Positions 2,766 through 61,714 of a DNA stretch of 64,000 nucleotides are shown piece by piece. Source of the stretch: Escherichia phage UPEC06. Where the stretch lies: sequence record MW250786. One strand, written 5' to 3'. Positions within the stretch are counted from its first letter, which is position 1; every line of letters begins with the position of its first letter. Under the pieces are notes generated by a model. It was given only the letters and a program-made list of their open reading frames with translations. It ran no database searches and was not told the origin of the DNA. The position numbers were made by a program, and so were the translations under genes.

Positions 2766-3404
2766 TTACTCTTTCCCCTCTGAGAGTTTGATAATTAATT
2801 TTGCAGTTTCAGTTAGCTTACCATTAACGTTTTCAACGTCGAAATCTCTAGGTCGTGCACTTTCAGGAAAATTCTCAGAGTAAATATAATTACGAGAATC
2901 GCCTTCAAAAGTTAATTTATTACCAGTTCGTGGATCGGTACGGTGAAGACGGATCAATGTGTAATCTCCATTTACCGCCTTCACTACCGGAACGCTTTCA
3001 TGAACAAATCCACCATCAGAGCTAATAAACGTACAGGTATAACCATTCATTTCCATACTTTTCGCAATATCTTTGACACGCTTGGCAAGAGCAACACCAA
3101 AGTATTCTTCTCCGAAGAGAGGCTTCGCAACATTCTCAGAGATATGGATCAGCCAGTTACGTGGAGACACTTGTTTACCTGCAACATTGAAATATGGTTG
3201 AGGCACTTCTTTATAATCACGGTGGTAAAGTGCATCCCACAGTTCACGATTAATACCTGCAATACGAATAGCTAGATCGATAAGGGAACCTTTAAACTCA
3301 ACATGAATACCTACGTTATTATCTACCGTAACTAACTCTGCAATCTCTTTAGCAAGAGCATCTTTACCAGAAAAAGCAGGACCATTCAAATTGATAAATT
3401 TCAT
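2766..3404 (-). CDS. deoxynucleoside monophosphate kinase (P-loop)
   Basis: N-terminal MKFINLNGPAFSGKD P-loop resembling the T4 gp1 dNMP kinase N-terminus. Confidence 0.55.
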   Translation of the reverse strand: MKFINLNGPAFSGKDALAKEIAELVTVDNNVGIHVEFKGSLIDLAIRIAGINRELWDALYHRDYKEVPQPYFNVAGKQVSPRNWLIHISENVAKPLFGEEYFGVALAKRVKDIAKSMEMNGYTCTFISSDGGFVHESVPVVKAVNGDYTLIRLHRTDPRTGNKLTFEGDSRNYIYSENFPESARPRDFDVENVNGKLTETAKLIIKLSEGKE

Positions 3405-58913: not shown

Positions 58914-59501
58914 TCAAGGACGTTTTGGTGGACTAACGACACCTTTTTTAGATAAAGGTAATTCGTCTGCATCTTTTCCACGAAGAGATTCTAGCCACTC
59001 ATCTAAAGACAGGGGTACTTTACCATCACCTTTGGACCACACAGACAAGCAATACAGATCGTATGCAGATGGACCTCGATCACCTTTGTCACCATTCGGC
59101 CCTTTTAAGCTCTCCAACCAATCCTTTTCGTTCAGTGGGATAGCACCTGGATCTTCTTGATGAAGAACTCTTAGGTATGTTTCATAAGCAGACTCTCCAC
59201 GAGGACCCATTTGACCCTTCTCACCTTGTGGCCCTTTTGCATAATCTGCGTACTTAGATTCCAGATATGCAGACTTCACACCTTCAGGGGCAACGGAAAC
59301 CTTATACAATGACCAAGCTAACAGAGCTATCCAACAAGCAAACAGTGCAAGCGGATAAGGGATCATTGAAGTAAAGAATGACAGAGCTAAAATTACAACC
59401 TTGTTCTTGTGATTACGACGGAAAGCGATGATCACAGGGGCTAACCAGATAGCAAAGATAACCCACGCAGATAAGATAAACAACCAACTAATGTATTCCA
59501 T
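58914..59501 (-). CDS. membrane protein with collagen-like GXY / SAY...WLESLKG motifs
   Basis: Three N-terminal hydrophobic segments, then two copies of GP.GE.G...SAY...WLESL(K/R)G, the motif family seen in the 29947 fibre protein. Confidence 0.45.
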   Translation of the reverse strand: MEYISWLFILSAWVIFAIWLAPVIIAFRRNHKNKVVILALSFFTSMIPYPLALFACWIALLAWSLYKVSVAPEGVKSAYLESKYADYAKGPQGEKGQMGPRGESAYETYLRVLHQEDPGAIPLNEKDWLESLKGPNGDKGDRGPSAYDLYCLSVWSKGDGKVPLSLDEWLESLRGKDADELPLSKKGVVSPPKRP

Positions 59502-59689
59502 TAAGCCTCCTCGGTATCGTCTTTAAAGTAATCTAACATCCAACTTTCTACAGGGGTTGCATAGTAACCCGTTCGACCTTTCTTTTGAAACTCCATGATA
59601 ATTTCATTTGCAATACCTTTTGTGATTGCGATCCCGATCAGTGCACCACCAGGTCCCATTACTGCATGTGAACTAAGATCATTACTCAT
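59501..59689 (-). CDS. hypothetical protein
   Basis: ORF track; overlapping start/stop. Confidence 0.3.
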   Translation of the reverse strand: MSNDLSSHAVMGPGGALIGIAITKGIANEIIMEFQKKGRTGYYATPVESWMLDYFKDDTEEA

Positions 59690-59981
59690 TTTTAACCCCC
59701 TTCATTTTATCTCTTAAACTTTGAGCATCCCACGTATAACCTGAGGAGATACCTTTTTCACGTTCACTATCTTTGAACTTGCAAATTACAGATTTTGCTT
59801 CACCATCAACAACAACCGCATAACTGTTGTAATAATTGTGTTGCTTCTTGCAAAATTCGTGTAACTCCTTAACCTCTATTGGCATCAGAGAAGGTAGATT
59901 TTTGTATCGCTTTGTCTGATCATCTTCACCATCTCCGCAACCAACAAGAAGAAGTATACATAAAATGATTAACCTTTTCAA
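59682..59981 (-). CDS. putative lipoprotein
   Basis: Signal peptide with lipobox LVGC; TTG start with GGGGGT SD-like sequence. Confidence 0.4.
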   Translation of the reverse strand: MKRLIILCILLLVGCGDGEDDQTKRYKNLPSLMPIEVKELHEFCKKQHNYYNSYAVVVDGEAKSVICKFKDSEREKGISSGYTWDAQSLRDKMKGVKNE

Positions 59982-60129
59982 TAGCTACCCCCAAAATATT
60001 TTGTAATCTCTACTGCAAATATTGTCCCAAGTATAAACCATGTGGCACTTAGTACGTTGAAGGGTAAAAACCTTGATCCTGTAAGAGAAACCATAATGAA
60101 AAACGTTACAAAAATCTCTGGAGAAATCA

Positions 60130-60531
60130 TCATTGTTTGATAGTCCCCTTGGCGATCATCTCGTCAAGTTCATCTTCCGCACGACACATAATCTGATAGA
60201 TAGTCTCTGGATTGTTTAAGAATTCTGTGTACTTTTTGATACGACAAACTAAACGTGCACGAACTTTACGCTCACGGGCCACATGATTAAAGTAATGTCC
60301 CTTTTGTCTGTAGATCCAAGCATAATATACAGTTTTTGCTCTATTGCGATCACAACCTAAACGTTCAGCCAACAGAGTGTAAGGGTCATTATTAGTGGGA
60401 CCAAACAAAAATATTTCTGCAAAACTTTCCTTCATGATACGAGATTCTTCATCCGTGATTCGCGGACATTCTTCAGAACCGTAGCGTGGGGTTTTAGTGG
60501 CATTTGGCTTCTTAGGGTATACTTTACGCAT
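60130..60531 (-). CDS. hypothetical protein (basic; possibly nucleic-acid binding)
   Basis: Basic composition with several Cys (CPRI, CDRN, CRIK, CRAE). Confidence 0.3.
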   Translation of the reverse strand: MRKVYPKKPNATKTPRYGSEECPRITDEESRIMKESFAEIFLFGPTNNDPYTLLAERLGCDRNRAKTVYYAWIYRQKGHYFNHVARERKVRARLVCRIKKYTEFLNNPETIYQIMCRAEDELDEMIAKGTIKQ

Positions 60532-60598
60532 TTCATCACTCCTCTAATTAAAACTCTTACTCCCGATGTGAGGAGCCTTTCGGCCCCTCTCTTAAATA

Positions 60599-61207
60599 TC
60601 AATCACAACTACTTGAAGAACTACTGCTGCTACTGTCAGAAGAATAACTATCATATGATGATGAGCTATCATACGAACTTGATCGACTTGAAGAACAGTA
60701 AGAACTTGAACTACTTGTACGATCTTCACTGGAGGACATTACAGCAGCATACGTTGCCACACCACCTAAAGCTGCCACCTGAGGATCAACCTGGCTAGTT
60801 CCATATCCATTTGGAGAGTCGCTCATCTTACGTGGTGCTGCCCGACGTGCCTGATCAATATACTGTCGCTTTGCCTTCGGCGGTAATTTCTTACCTTGAG
60901 CATAGGACGGTAATTCAACGCCCTTCAGTTGTTCATTCAAAGGTTTCGGCGGTGTAGCCTGTGATTTTGGTCGTTCAACAGAGATATCAACAACCTTCAT
61001 CGTCTTATCCTTGATGTTTACCCCAACCAGTACTTCATTTTCTTTTAATGGCTTTTCAAGATCGCGTGTTTCAACTGGACCAAATTTAACGCTTGCAGTT
61101 TCCTGACGTTGTTCGGCCTGCTTTGCAATATATTTGTCGATCGCCGCAGTTTCTACTTCCAGCGGAATAAACAGTGATTTTACCCAAGCAACAAACTTCT
61201 TGATCAT
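60599..61207 (-). CDS. hypothetical protein with serine-rich low-complexity C-terminus
   Basis: C-terminal SSSEDRTSSSSSYCSSSRSSSYDSSSSYDSYSSDSSSSSSSSSCD. Confidence 0.4.
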   Translation of the reverse strand: MIKKFVAWVKSLFIPLEVETAAIDKYIAKQAEQRQETASVKFGPVETRDLEKPLKENEVLVGVNIKDKTMKVVDISVERPKSQATPPKPLNEQLKGVELPSYAQGKKLPPKAKRQYIDQARRAAPRKMSDSPNGYGTSQVDPQVAALGGVATYAAVMSSSEDRTSSSSSYCSSSRSSSYDSSSSYDSYSSDSSSSSSSSSCD

Positions 61208-61428
61208 ACTCTTTCTCCTTTTTCATCAATAACAATCAGTGGCTCAATAACTAAAAGACGTTGCTTCATAAGACTTTTTATAGTCTCATCAATGTCAGAC
61301 AGAAGAATATCTTTTTGACCTTCTATCCAATTGAGTGCTGCCTTTTCTGAAACAAATGCAATACCTTCTTGACCAATATCCCATTCACAGAATACTTTAT
61401 ACACCATCATCCTCTCCCTTGTCAACAT
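61204..61428 (-). CDS. hypothetical protein
   Basis: ORF track. Confidence 0.3.
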   Translation of the reverse strand: MLTRERMMVYKVFCEWDIGQEGIAFVSEKAALNWIEGQKDILLSDIDETIKSLMKQRLLVIEPLIVIDEKGERV

Positions 61429-61714
61429 TATTCGGATTCAGTTTCTTTTCTGCGGTCTTCAAAATAATATCCAGCTTTTCAATTTCCTTATGTAAAGGCT
61501 CAGATAATAACTTCTCACCAAAAAGCCAGAATTTCTTCATGCCTTTCTTAACGCACTTCCCCATAAAGCCCGCGAGGTCTTCTAGTCGCCAAGCGATAAA
61601 ACTAAATATTGCAGCTAAAAGGTGAATCACGGCCAGCAGTAAACGATGTGGGTTTAGTACAGCAAGGCACAGGATCATAAAGATTATTTTAGTAAATCCC
61701 CAAATAATTTTCAT
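61397..61714 (-). CDS. hypothetical membrane protein
   Basis: Two N-terminal hydrophobic segments. Confidence 0.3.
   Translation of the reverse strand: MKIIWGFTKIIFMILCLAVLNPHRLLLAVIHLLAAIFSFIAWRLEDLAGFMGKCVKKGMKKFWLFGEKLLSEPLHKEIEKLDIILKTAEKKLNPNNVDKGEDDGV

What the first reader, a model, noticed from the sequence alone, without database searches (positions are those of the whole stretch)
60599..61207. Protein with a long poly-serine low-complexity tail
The C-terminal ~45 residues are almost entirely Ser with periodic Tyr/Asp (SSSYDSSSSYDSYSSDSSSSSSSSSCD). Such tracts are uncommon in phage proteins and could be a disordered linker, a phosphorylation or glycosylation substrate, or a slippage-prone repeat.
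Basis: seen in the sequence. Interest (0 to 1): 0.4.

Follow-up and report, generated by a model that had tools for sequence, protein, structure and literature searches.

The report
Conserved serine tail ending Cys-Asp
The poly-serine tail is real, translated and conserved. It is a disordered C-terminal module that always ends in Ser-Cys-Asp and is shared with the uncharacterised early protein Mrh.1 of phage T4, so it probably has a specific job that is still unknown.

Summary
The ORF (60599-61207, minus strand, 202 aa) and its tail are confirmed: 30 of the last 45 residues are Ser, and no other ORF in the window comes close.

The tail is not a DNA repeat. Six Ser codons are mixed, Tandem Repeats Finder finds nothing, and five isolates show no length change. 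Among those isolates the tail has dN/dS of about 0.05, as constrained as the rest of the protein.

The protein belongs to phrog_13005, a small family in Septuagintavirus/Certrevirus-type phages of Enterobacterales. Family features:
- an N-terminal amphipathic helix (MIKKFVAWVKSLF);
- a basic core (LPPKAKRQ);
- a disordered tail of Ser, Tyr and Asp;
- a C-terminus of Ser-Cys-Asp in almost every member;
- exactly two cysteines in about 90% of members.

The same N-terminal pattern, tail and Ser-Cys-Asp ending occur in T4 Mrh.1 (Pfam DUF7206). Natural chimeric proteins link the two families.

Function is unknown. My best inference is an early, non-virion, probably membrane-tethered disordered protein. 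It would present a flexible acidic spacer carrying a thiol pair and an exact C-terminal motif to a host partner or a metal. Slippage is refuted. "Linker" does not fit. Phosphorylation or glycosylation has no support so far.

Verdict: moderately interesting, and a divergent variant of a known uncharacterised family.

The parts
60599..61207 (-). Whole CDS, 202 aa plus stop; member of phrog_13005
   Evidence: (E 5.2e-42 over the full length)
61215..61220 (-). Shine-Dalgarno AAGGAG, 7 nt upstream of the ATG
   Evidence: read from the sequence
61169..61207 (-). Residues 1-13, MIKKFVAWVKSLF: conserved N-terminal amphipathic helix, inferred to be a membrane-targeting sequence
   Evidence: AlphaFold2 helix 2-13. 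Mean hydrophobicity 0.79, hydrophobic moment 0.71, net charge +3. The pattern is present in 92/93 members of this family and 47/47 Mrh.1 members, and in 1 of 301 window ORFs. No amino-acid change among the 5 isolates
60974..61093 (-). Residues 39-78: three-stranded beta meander, optional in the family
   Evidence: pLDDT above 90. The region is rich in indels or absent in many homologs
60845..60955 (-). Residues 85-121: conserved basic core, TPPKPLNEQLKGVELPSYAQGKKLPPKAKRQYIDQAR
   Evidence: holds most invariant columns (K88, L90, P100, Y102, G105, L108, P109, P110, A112, K113). dN/dS 0.034
60737..60784 (-). Residues 142-157, PQVAALGGVATYAAVM: short Ala/Gly/Val-rich hydrophobic stretch before the tail
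   Evidence: A counterpart (IDTTPIVVAAAVSSW) sits in Mrh.1. It is too short to be a transmembrane helix
60602..60736 (-). Residues 158-202: disordered Ser/Tyr/Asp tail (30 Ser of 45)
   Evidence: dN/dS 0.047, with 10 synonymous-only versus 3 amino-acid-changing codon columns. hhalign against the Mrh.1 tail gives probability 96%, E 3e-9
60695..60697 (-). Cys171, the second of exactly two cysteines
   Evidence: 78/85 family members have exactly two Cys. In this lineage the Cys of the Certrevirus 'EEC' motif is lost and a new Cys lies 9 residues downstream
60602..60610 (-). Ser200-Cys201-Asp202, the C-terminal motif of both families
   Evidence: 87 family-A and 46 Mrh.1-family sequences that end in Cys-Asp all carry Ser at -3. 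SCD is the ending of 78/82 first-search family-A hits and 46/47 Mrh.1 homologs. Synonymous TGT/TGC and GAT/GAC variants occur
60570..60589 (-). GC-rich hairpin (8 bp, GAAA loop) 10 nt after the stop codon
   Evidence: Certrevirus has a different hairpin (GGGGGC-UUCG-GCCCCC) at the same place
61204..61428 (-). Upstream small ORF (67-74 aa, phrog_9656); its stop overlaps the target's start (ATGA)
   Evidence: The same arrangement occurs in Certrevirus and for T4/VR7 mrh.2-mrh.1, but the upstream proteins are not similar
60130..60531 (-). Downstream 133-aa all-alpha protein (phrog_12333), always next to the target gene
   Evidence: No fold match

Best explanation
SHOWN. The ORF encodes a real, non-virion accessory protein in a leftward block of small genes of a Septuagintavirus-like (Vequintavirinae) E. 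coli phage. It is a modular, largely disordered protein with these parts:
- an N-terminal amphipathic helix;
- an optional small beta meander;
- a conserved basic motif (LPPKAKRQ);
- a short Ala/Gly-rich hydrophobic stretch;
- a low-complexity tail of Ser, Tyr and Asp that ends in Ser-Cys-Asp-COOH in almost every member and carries one further Cys.
The tail is selected as protein, not as repeat DNA. The same N-terminal pattern and tail occur in T4 Mrh.1 (DUF7206), so this is a divergent branch of an Mrh.1-like superfamily with a different middle module.

INFERRED mechanism. The N-terminal helix tethers the protein to the cytoplasmic face of the inner membrane. The poly-Ser/Tyr/Asp tract is a flexible, acidic spacer of adjustable length with no Lys and almost no Arg. 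It displays the functional elements: the exact C-terminus (Cys-Asp with a free carboxylate) and a second thiol. These would engage an Enterobacterales host factor, either as a C-terminal short linear motif or through thiol chemistry (a shared metal site, or disulfide exchange with the thioredoxin/glutaredoxin system). The target is unknown.
For: Translation and selection:
- Good ribosome-binding site and ATGA coupling to the upstream ORF.
- dN/dS 0.06 overall and 0.047 in the tail. Among the isolates 10 tail codon columns change synonymously only; at greater distances aligned Ser codons switch between TCN and AGY.

Not repeat DNA:
- Mixed codons, no tandem repeat call, no indel among 5 isolates.

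Family-wide conservation:
- 78/82 homologs in the first search end in SCD. In the later tally, 87 family-A and 46 Mrh.1-family sequences end in Cys-Asp and all have Ser at -3.
- The YDS(G/S)S motif is nearly invariant.
- Exactly two Cys in 78/85 and 41/46 members. The position of the second Cys moves between lineages while the count is kept.

Link to T4 Mrh.1:
- P0081 and P0093 carry both the LPPKAKRQF core and the DUF7206 EYVYMGDGMMEEV motif plus tail. P0093 sits at the orthologous position, next to a homolog of the downstream gene.
- hhalign of the tails gives probability 96%.
- The N-terminal pattern is present in 92/93 and 47/47 members, against 1 of 301 window ORFs.

Disorder and composition:
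- pLDDT is below 50 across most of residues 127-200.
- Tail composition bias: S:T 15:1, D:E 17:1 or higher, K+R below 1%.

Context:
- Not among the 28 virion proteins of phage W70 (PMC11370258).
- Neighbouring genes encode a lipoprotein (lipobox LVGC), small hydrophobic proteins and an Imm-like protein.
- All phages with either family infect Enterobacterales.
Against: - No experiment and no characterised homolog exists. Pfam, PDB sequence search and Foldseek give nothing.
- Membrane binding rests only on a hydrophobic-moment calculation.
- The spacing of the two Cys ranges from 2 to 53 residues, which fits poorly with a fixed intramolecular metal site.
- The hhalign match covers only 20 low-complexity columns. 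The window protein itself does not reach DUF7206 (no hit at E up to 1), so convergence of the tails cannot be fully excluded.
- A natural variant lacks the whole tract and the first Cys and keeps only ...SCD. Either the spacer and thiol pair are dispensable, or that variant is defective.
Confidence: 0.4

Rival explanations
1. The tail is a substrate for Ser/Tyr phosphorylation or O-glycosylation. After modification it would become a polyanion that mimics nucleic acid or sequesters a host factor.
For: The tail is rich in Ser and Tyr, disordered and accessible. Its composition resembles eukaryotic phosphoserine-rich proteins (my own knowledge).
Against: The main text of the Septuagintavirus paper mentions no kinase or glycosyltransferase. 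T4, which carries the homologous tail, is not known to encode a protein kinase (established knowledge). Ser is preferred over Thr 11-15:1. The idea explains neither the SCD terminus nor the two-Cys rule.
Confidence: 0.1
2. The tail works purely through its composition, and the SCD end is secondary. It could act as a 'sticker and spacer' low-complexity region (Tyr as stickers, Ser as spacers) that drives self-association or condensates. Alternatively it could be an acidic tail that folds back on the basic LPPKAKRQ core to auto-inhibit it.
For: Tyr residues recur every 4-7 positions. The S/Y/G/D composition resembles FUS-type low-complexity segments (my own knowledge). A basic core and an acidic tail sit in one chain. 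Tail length is highly variable across the family, 3-54 residues.
Against: The tail is only 20-50 residues long. T4 Mrh.1 has the tail but not the basic core. The strongest conservation is in the last three residues and the Cys count, not in bulk composition.
Confidence: 0.15
3. The tail is exported to the periplasm, where the two Cys form a disulfide made by DsbA.
For: There is an even number of Cys (exactly two). The tail has essentially no Lys or Arg, while basic residues lie upstream of the hydrophobic stretch, as the positive-inside rule predicts. Neighbouring genes encode envelope proteins.
Against: There is no signal peptide. The hydrophobic stretch is only about 14 residues here and about 7 in T4 Mrh.1, too short to span a membrane.
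Confidence: 0.07
4. The tail is the core peptide of a ribosomally made, post-translationally modified product, for example with Ser/Cys heterocycles or thioether cross-links.
For: The C-terminus is rich in Ser and Cys with a conserved end, behind a conserved N-terminal 'leader-like' part.
Against: No modifying enzyme was recognised in the five flanking genes scanned. The protein has 200 residues with a structured middle. T4 has no known enzyme of this type (established knowledge).
Confidence: 0.03
5. The tract is a meaningless or hypervariable low-complexity stretch produced by replication slippage.
For: The sequence is low-complexity, and tail length differs between genera.
Against: Mixed codons, no tandem repeat, no indel among isolates, dN/dS 0.047, and an SCD terminus kept in almost all members of two families.
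Confidence: 0.02

Closest known systems
T4 Mrh.1 (Pfam DUF7206 / PF23836, phrog_2031), an uncharacterised early-region protein of T-even phages
   Same: Both have an N-terminal M..W-[LVI]-K-x-[LF]-F helix, a short Ala/Val-rich stretch, and a Ser/Tyr/Asp/Gly tail with YDSGS that ends in SCD-COOH. Both usually have exactly two Cys. In both, the stop of a small upstream ORF overlaps the start. Both occur only in phages of Enterobacterales. Natural chimeras link the two families.
   Different: The window protein lacks the invariant EYVYMGDG..EEV motif and does not reach the Pfam model. It is about 90 residues longer, with a beta meander and the LPPKAKRQ basic core. Its tail is twice as long, and its second Cys lies 30 residues from the last one rather than 7. 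The neighbouring genes are unrelated.
Certrevirus homologs (CR3 gp041, phiTE_004, CR9 gp041), phrog_13005
   Same: Same family and the same gene position and neighbours, at 41-56% identity. They share the same ends and the same core.
   Different: Certrevirus proteins have the first Cys in a VEEC motif and an extra Pro/Ala-rich segment. Their tails are richer in Tyr and Gly, or in Pro in CR9 (PSY repeats).
Bacterial and phage SSB-type tails (E. coli SSB linker plus DDDIPF tip; T4 gp32 Ser/Asp-rich C-terminus). This is a working analogy from my own knowledge.
   Same: A low-complexity disordered spacer ends in a strictly conserved acidic C-terminal tip that serves as a docking motif.
   Different: There is no OB fold and no sequence relationship. 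The tip here contains Cys, and no partner is known.
Ser-rich C-termini of class IIb (siderophore) microcins. This is an analogy from my own knowledge.
   Same: A Ser-rich, unstructured C-terminal region whose exact end matters.
   Different: Those peptides end in Ser, have double-glycine leaders, and need MceIJ-type enzymes. None of these is seen here.
Polyserine linkers of bacterial glycoside hydrolases
   Same: Long runs of Ser encoded by mixed codons.
   Different: Those linkers join two folded domains of secreted enzymes. Here the tract is terminal, contains Tyr, Asp and Cys, and sits in a cytoplasmic phage protein.

Membership tests
phrog_13005 (Certrevirus/Septuagintavirus hypothetical protein family) | Full-length profile match | tested here: met
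   E 5.2e-42, residues 1-200 against profile positions 1-217 of 230. 82 homologs found.
Pfam DUF7206 / T4 Mrh.1 | Score above the Pfam gathering threshold | tested here: not met
   No Pfam hit at E up to 1. T4 and VR7 Mrh.1 score 103 and 121 bits.
Pfam DUF7206 / T4 Mrh.1 | Central invariant motif E-Y-x-Y-x-G-D-G-x-x-E-E-V | tested here: not met
   The motif is absent from the window protein. It is present only in the chimeric relatives P0081 and P0093.
Pfam DUF7206 / T4 Mrh.1 | N-terminal helix pattern M..[WF][LVIF][KRA]x[LFI][FL] | tested here: met
   92/93 and 47/47 members, and only 1 of 301 window ORFs.
Pfam DUF7206 / T4 Mrh.1 | Ser/Tyr/Asp tail ending in Ser-Cys-Asp-COOH | tested here: met
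   hhalign probability 96%, E 3e-9 over the last 20 columns. These are low-complexity columns, so the statistic should be read with care.
Pfam DUF7206 / T4 Mrh.1 | Exactly two cysteines, the last at position -2 | tested here: met
   The window protein has C171 and C201. The rule holds in 78/85 and 41/46 members.
Pfam DUF7206 / T4 Mrh.1 | Conserved gene neighbourhood (mrh.2 upstream; mrh and srh downstream) | tested here: not met
   Only the 4-nt overlap with a small upstream ORF is shared. The neighbouring proteins show no similarity.
Slippage-prone simple-sequence (contingency) locus | Tandem DNA repeat of a short unit, with length variation between isolates | tested here: not met
   Tandem Repeats Finder returns 0 rows. 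Only imperfect 11-19 nt repeats are present. All five isolates have 202 aa.
Interdomain polyserine linker | Folded domains on both sides of the tract | tested here: not met
   The tract runs to the stop codon.
Modified-peptide precursor (microcin, TOMM or lanthipeptide type) | Adjacent modifying enzyme or export genes | tested here: inconclusive
   None was recognised among the five flanking genes scanned. The rest of the genome was not scanned.
Membrane-targeting amphipathic helix (MinD/MreB/FtsA type) | Helix with a high hydrophobic moment and a cationic face that binds the membrane | tested here: inconclusive
   The physico-chemical criteria are met and AlphaFold2 predicts a helix at 2-13. 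Actual membrane binding cannot be tested with these tools.
Phosphorylation or glycosylation substrate | Modified Ser or Tyr in infected cells | not testable with these tools
   This needs mass spectrometry.

The most novel reading that the evidence does not exclude
The Ser/Tyr/Asp tract ending in Ser-Cys-Asp-COOH, together with a second cysteine, is a previously unrecognised portable C-terminal module of enterobacterial phage early proteins (T4 Mrh.1 and this Vequintavirinae family). It would act by thiol chemistry, not by simple binding. It could form a shared metal site or a mixed disulfide with a host protein at the membrane. It could also be covalently modified at the terminal Cys-Asp.
Probability: 0.2. 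Interest if true: 0.7.

Novelty: new variant of a known kind. Interest (0 to 1): 0.45.

Why it matters
T4 Mrh.1 and its relatives are present in many hundreds of sequenced T-even phage genomes, and no function has been assigned to them. This work links a second family, from unrelated large myoviruses, to the same two end modules. It identifies the exact C-terminus and a two-cysteine rule as the features under strongest selection. That turns an anonymous 'low-complexity' ORF into a defined target for experiments: three residues to delete and two cysteines to mutate. It also shows that low-complexity tails in phage proteins can be precisely conserved functional elements rather than noise. If the partner is a host factor specific to Enterobacterales, it would be a new host-takeover or anti-defence interaction.

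Tried and rejected
- Pfam, PHROGs, PDB sequence search and Foldseek (PDB and BFVD) on the AlphaFold2 model gave no functional lead.
- Searching the 5.8-billion-protein database with the DUF7206-like part of P0081 returned only two hits.
- Text searches for 'DUF7206', 'mrh.1', 'mrh.2' and 'polyserine + bacteriophage' found nothing relevant. The 'mrh.2' hits were reference-list artefacts in magnesium-nutrition papers.
- I tested whether the neighbours are homologs of T4 Mrh, ModA.3 or Mrh.2. They are not.
- I modelled the co-conserved downstream 133-aa protein, hoping for a sigma-like or helix-turn-helix fold. It is all-alpha with no significant structural match.
- A transmembrane reading of the hydrophobic stretch was rejected because it is only 7-14 residues long.
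- A signal-peptide reading of the N-terminus was rejected because a Lys sits in the middle of the hydrophobic run and the window protein has no AxA site.
- Cleavage by a T4-type prohead protease at the N-terminus was considered and dropped because the motif does not fit.

Full report
**1. The observation**

The ORF at 60599..61207 on the minus strand encodes 202 residues. The last 45 residues are SSSEDRTSSSSSYCSSSRSSSYDSSSSYDSYSSDSSSSSSSSSCD. They comprise 30 Ser, 5 Asp, 4 Tyr, 2 Cys, 2 Arg, 1 Glu and 1 Thr.

No other ORF of at least 50 aa in the window (301 ORFs) has more than 16 Ser in any 45-residue stretch. At the window's Ser frequency of 7.2%, the chance of 30 or more in 45 is about 6e-24.

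**2. It is a translated gene, not repeat DNA**

- The start codon is preceded by AAGGAG at a 7-nt spacing and overlaps the stop of the upstream ORF (ATGA).
- The window is 92-96% identical to five Vequintavirinae E. coli phages: LTH01, A73, W70, A5-4 and A7_1. These belong to the group published as the genus Septuagintavirus. All annotate the same 609-nt CDS.
- The five protein sequences aligned (the window's plus four of these isolates) are 95-98% identical to the window's and have no indel.
- Codon analysis gives 51 variable codon columns that are synonymous only and 16 that change the amino acid.
- In the tail the split is 10 against 3, with dN/dS 0.047. The conserved core gives 0.034 and the variable middle 0.116.
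- The 30 tail serines use all six codons, intermixed. Tandem Repeats Finder reports nothing, and only imperfect 11-19 nt direct repeats exist.
- Between genera, aligned Ser positions switch between TCN and AGY codons. The terminal Cys and Asp codons vary synonymously.
- The short ORFs on the opposite strand and in the other frame across the tail are by-products of the low complexity.

**3. The family**

The protein matches phrog_13005 over its full length. tblastn finds homologs in 31 phage records: the Septuagintavirus-type phages, Certrevirus (CR3, CR8, CR9, phiTE, CB7, PBES 02 and others) and Salmonella phage SSBI34. All infect Enterobacterales.

A search of 5.8 billion proteins gives 82 clusters. 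An exhaustive profile search of 1.84 billion representatives gives only 27 representatives. The family is therefore small.

Alignments show a modular layout:
- a conserved N-terminal helix, M[IF]KKFVAWVK[AS]LF, followed by KVDEYIAKQ;
- an indel-rich region that is often absent;
- a very conserved basic core, TPPKPLNEQLKGVELPxYAxGKxLPPKAKRQ[YF]I;
- a short Ala/Gly-rich hydrophobic stretch;
- a Cys;
- the Ser/Tyr/Asp tail, with nearly invariant YDS(G/S)S elements.

In the first search 78 of 82 homologs end in SCD. In a later tally over both searches, 87 family sequences end in Cys-Asp and all of them carry Ser at position -3. Tail length varies from 3 to 54 residues across the family.

One natural lineage, seen on many contigs from one set of samples, has an in-frame deletion of about 100 codons. 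It removes the hydrophobic stretch, the first Cys and the whole tract, yet still ends ...SGSP-SCD.

**4. The link to T4**

The distant member P0081 hits Pfam DUF7206 with its C-terminal half. DUF7206 turns out to be T4 Mrh.1.

- T4 Mrh.1 reads MFIFNWFKSFF...EYVYMGDG...GDSCGSSCDSSCSSTSCD.
- The more typical VR7 protein reads MISWLKNLFK...EYVYMGDGMMEEV...IVVTAAAVSSWTGDSSYSSYDSGSCDSSSSSCD.
- Of 47 Mrh.1 homologs, 46 end in SCD.

Profile-profile comparison of the two families aligns the last 20 columns at 75% identity (probability 96%, E 3e-9). These are low-complexity columns, so this number alone is not proof.

Three further facts support a real relationship:
- A simple N-terminal pattern fits 92/93 and 47/47 members of the two families, but only 1 of 301 window ORFs.
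- P0081 and P0093 contain the LPPKAKRQF core of one family and also the EYVYMGDGMMEEV motif and tail of the other.
- P0093 lies at the orthologous genome position, followed by a homolog of the window's downstream gene (33% identity, E 2e-18).

The window protein itself does not reach the DUF7206 model and lacks its central motif. I therefore call it a divergent variant of an Mrh.1-like superfamily, not a DUF7206 member.

**5. What selection acts on**

- Both families have exactly two cysteines in about 90% of members: 78/85 and 41/46.
- The last Cys is always at position -2.
- The other Cys is 5-9 residues upstream in Mrh.1 and 2-53 residues upstream (median 44) in this family.
- In the window's lineage, the Certrevirus 'VEEC' aligns with 'SSED', and a new Cys appears nine residues downstream (YCSSS). 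The count is kept while the position moves.
- The tails prefer Ser over Thr by 11-15:1 and Asp over Glu by 17:1 or more. They contain almost no Lys, Arg, Asn or Gln.

This is more specific than 'any polar disordered sequence'.

**6. Structure and location**

AlphaFold2 with the family alignment gives these elements: helices at 2-13 and 20-34, a confident three-stranded meander at 39-78, helices at 90-95 and 110-123, and disorder across most of 127-200. Neither Foldseek nor PDB sequence search finds a relative.

The first 13 residues form a strongly amphipathic cationic helix (mean hydrophobicity 0.79, hydrophobic moment 0.71, charge +3). Those values equal or exceed what I computed for the MinD, MreB and FtsA membrane-targeting sequences.

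The protein is not among the 28 virion proteins found by mass spectrometry in phage W70 (PMC11370258).

The gene sits in a leftward block of small genes that includes:
- a lipoprotein with lipobox LVGC;
- small hydrophobic proteins;
- a protein resembling the superinfection-immunity family.

In T4, mrh.1 lies in the dispensable region that holds srd, modA, modB, mrh and srh, next to motB, which that paper calls an early gene (PMC6070864).

**7. Most likely mechanism (inference)**

The protein is probably tethered to the inner membrane by its N-terminal helix. The Ser/Tyr/Asp tract serves as a flexible acidic spacer. It presents the exact C-terminus (Cys-Asp with a free carboxylate) and a second thiol to a partner.

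The closest working analogy is the disordered linker plus conserved acidic tip of SSB proteins. The two-thiol rule points to metal sharing or disulfide exchange. Both phage groups encode their own glutaredoxin or thioredoxin (for Septuagintavirus; established knowledge for T4), but that is common among large phages and is weak evidence.

I put 0.4 on this package. The descriptive part is much more secure than the mechanistic part.

**8. Rivals**

- Phosphorylation or glycosylation substrate (0.1).
- Function through composition alone, as a self-associating or auto-inhibitory tail (0.15).
- Periplasmic, disulfide-bonded tail (0.07). The even Cys count and charge distribution fit, but there is no signal peptide or membrane-spanning segment.
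- Modified-peptide precursor (0.03).
- Slippage or junk (0.02, contradicted by the data).

**9. Novelty and score**

The gene is already deposited as a hypothetical protein, and both families exist as unnamed database clusters. Three things are new here:
- the link between the two families;
- the recognition of the tail as a conserved module with a Ser-Cys-Asp terminus kept in almost every member;
- the two-cysteine rule.

Function remains unknown, so interest is moderate (0.45). It would rise if the thiol-based or C-terminus-dependent interaction is shown.

Noticed in passing
window 60570-60589 (minus strand); L005 about 3200-3225; L020 about 1895-1915: A GC-rich hairpin lies about 10 nt after the target's stop codon (GAGGGGCC-GAAA-GGCUCCUC). 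Certrevirus has a different hairpin at the same place (GGGGGC-UUCG-GCCCCC). The structure is kept while the sequence is replaced. No U-run follows. Next comes the invariant GAGGAGTGATGAAATG that starts the downstream gene. It may be an RNA stability or processing element.
   Followed up: partly
window 60130-60531 (minus strand): This 133-aa protein (phrog_12333) is always immediately downstream of the target gene in Septuagintavirus, Certrevirus, SSBI34 and the chimeric locus L018. AlphaFold2 predicts five helices (pLDDT 75), and residues 50-76 look like a helix-turn-helix. There is no significant structural match.
   Followed up: partly
window 59682-59981 (minus strand): This 99-aa ORF begins MKRLIILCILLLVGCGDG, a typical lipoprotein signal with lipobox LVGC. 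It is likely a phage-encoded lipoprotein.
   Followed up: no
window 58914-59501 (minus strand): This 195-aa protein has an N-terminal hydrophobic region that weakly matches the superinfection-immunity family (Imm_superinfect, phrog_1039). It also has collagen-like G-x-y repeats that match tail-fibre PHROGs. This is an unusual combination.
   Followed up: no
window 59978-60133 and 61397-61714 (minus strand): Small, very hydrophobic ORFs (51 aa and 105 aa) flank the target's operon. The block looks rich in membrane-acting accessory genes.
   Followed up: no
L020 1501-1887 (protein P0038): A natural Certrevirus-like lineage carries an in-frame deletion of about 100 codons. It removes the hydrophobic stretch, the first Cys and the whole Ser tract, but keeps the last three codons (…SGSP-SCD-stop). 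It is seen on many contigs from one sample series.
   Followed up: partly
L018 4001-4585 (P0093); also P0081: These chimeric proteins combine the LPPKAKRQF core of phrog_13005 with the EYVYMGDGMMEEV motif and tail of T4 Mrh.1/DUF7206. They sit at the orthologous position in a related large phage.
   Followed up: yes
L005 1958-2287; L007 1961-2296: In CR3 and CR9, a gene annotated as similar to T4 NrdA.1 lies two genes upstream of the homolog. This is a second small T4-like accessory gene in the same block.
   Followed up: no
window 60568-60798 (+) and 60592-60729 (-): These are spurious ORFs of 76 and 45 aa across the tail, in other frames. They are artefacts of the low-complexity sequence. 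The substitution pattern supports only the annotated frame.
   Followed up: yes
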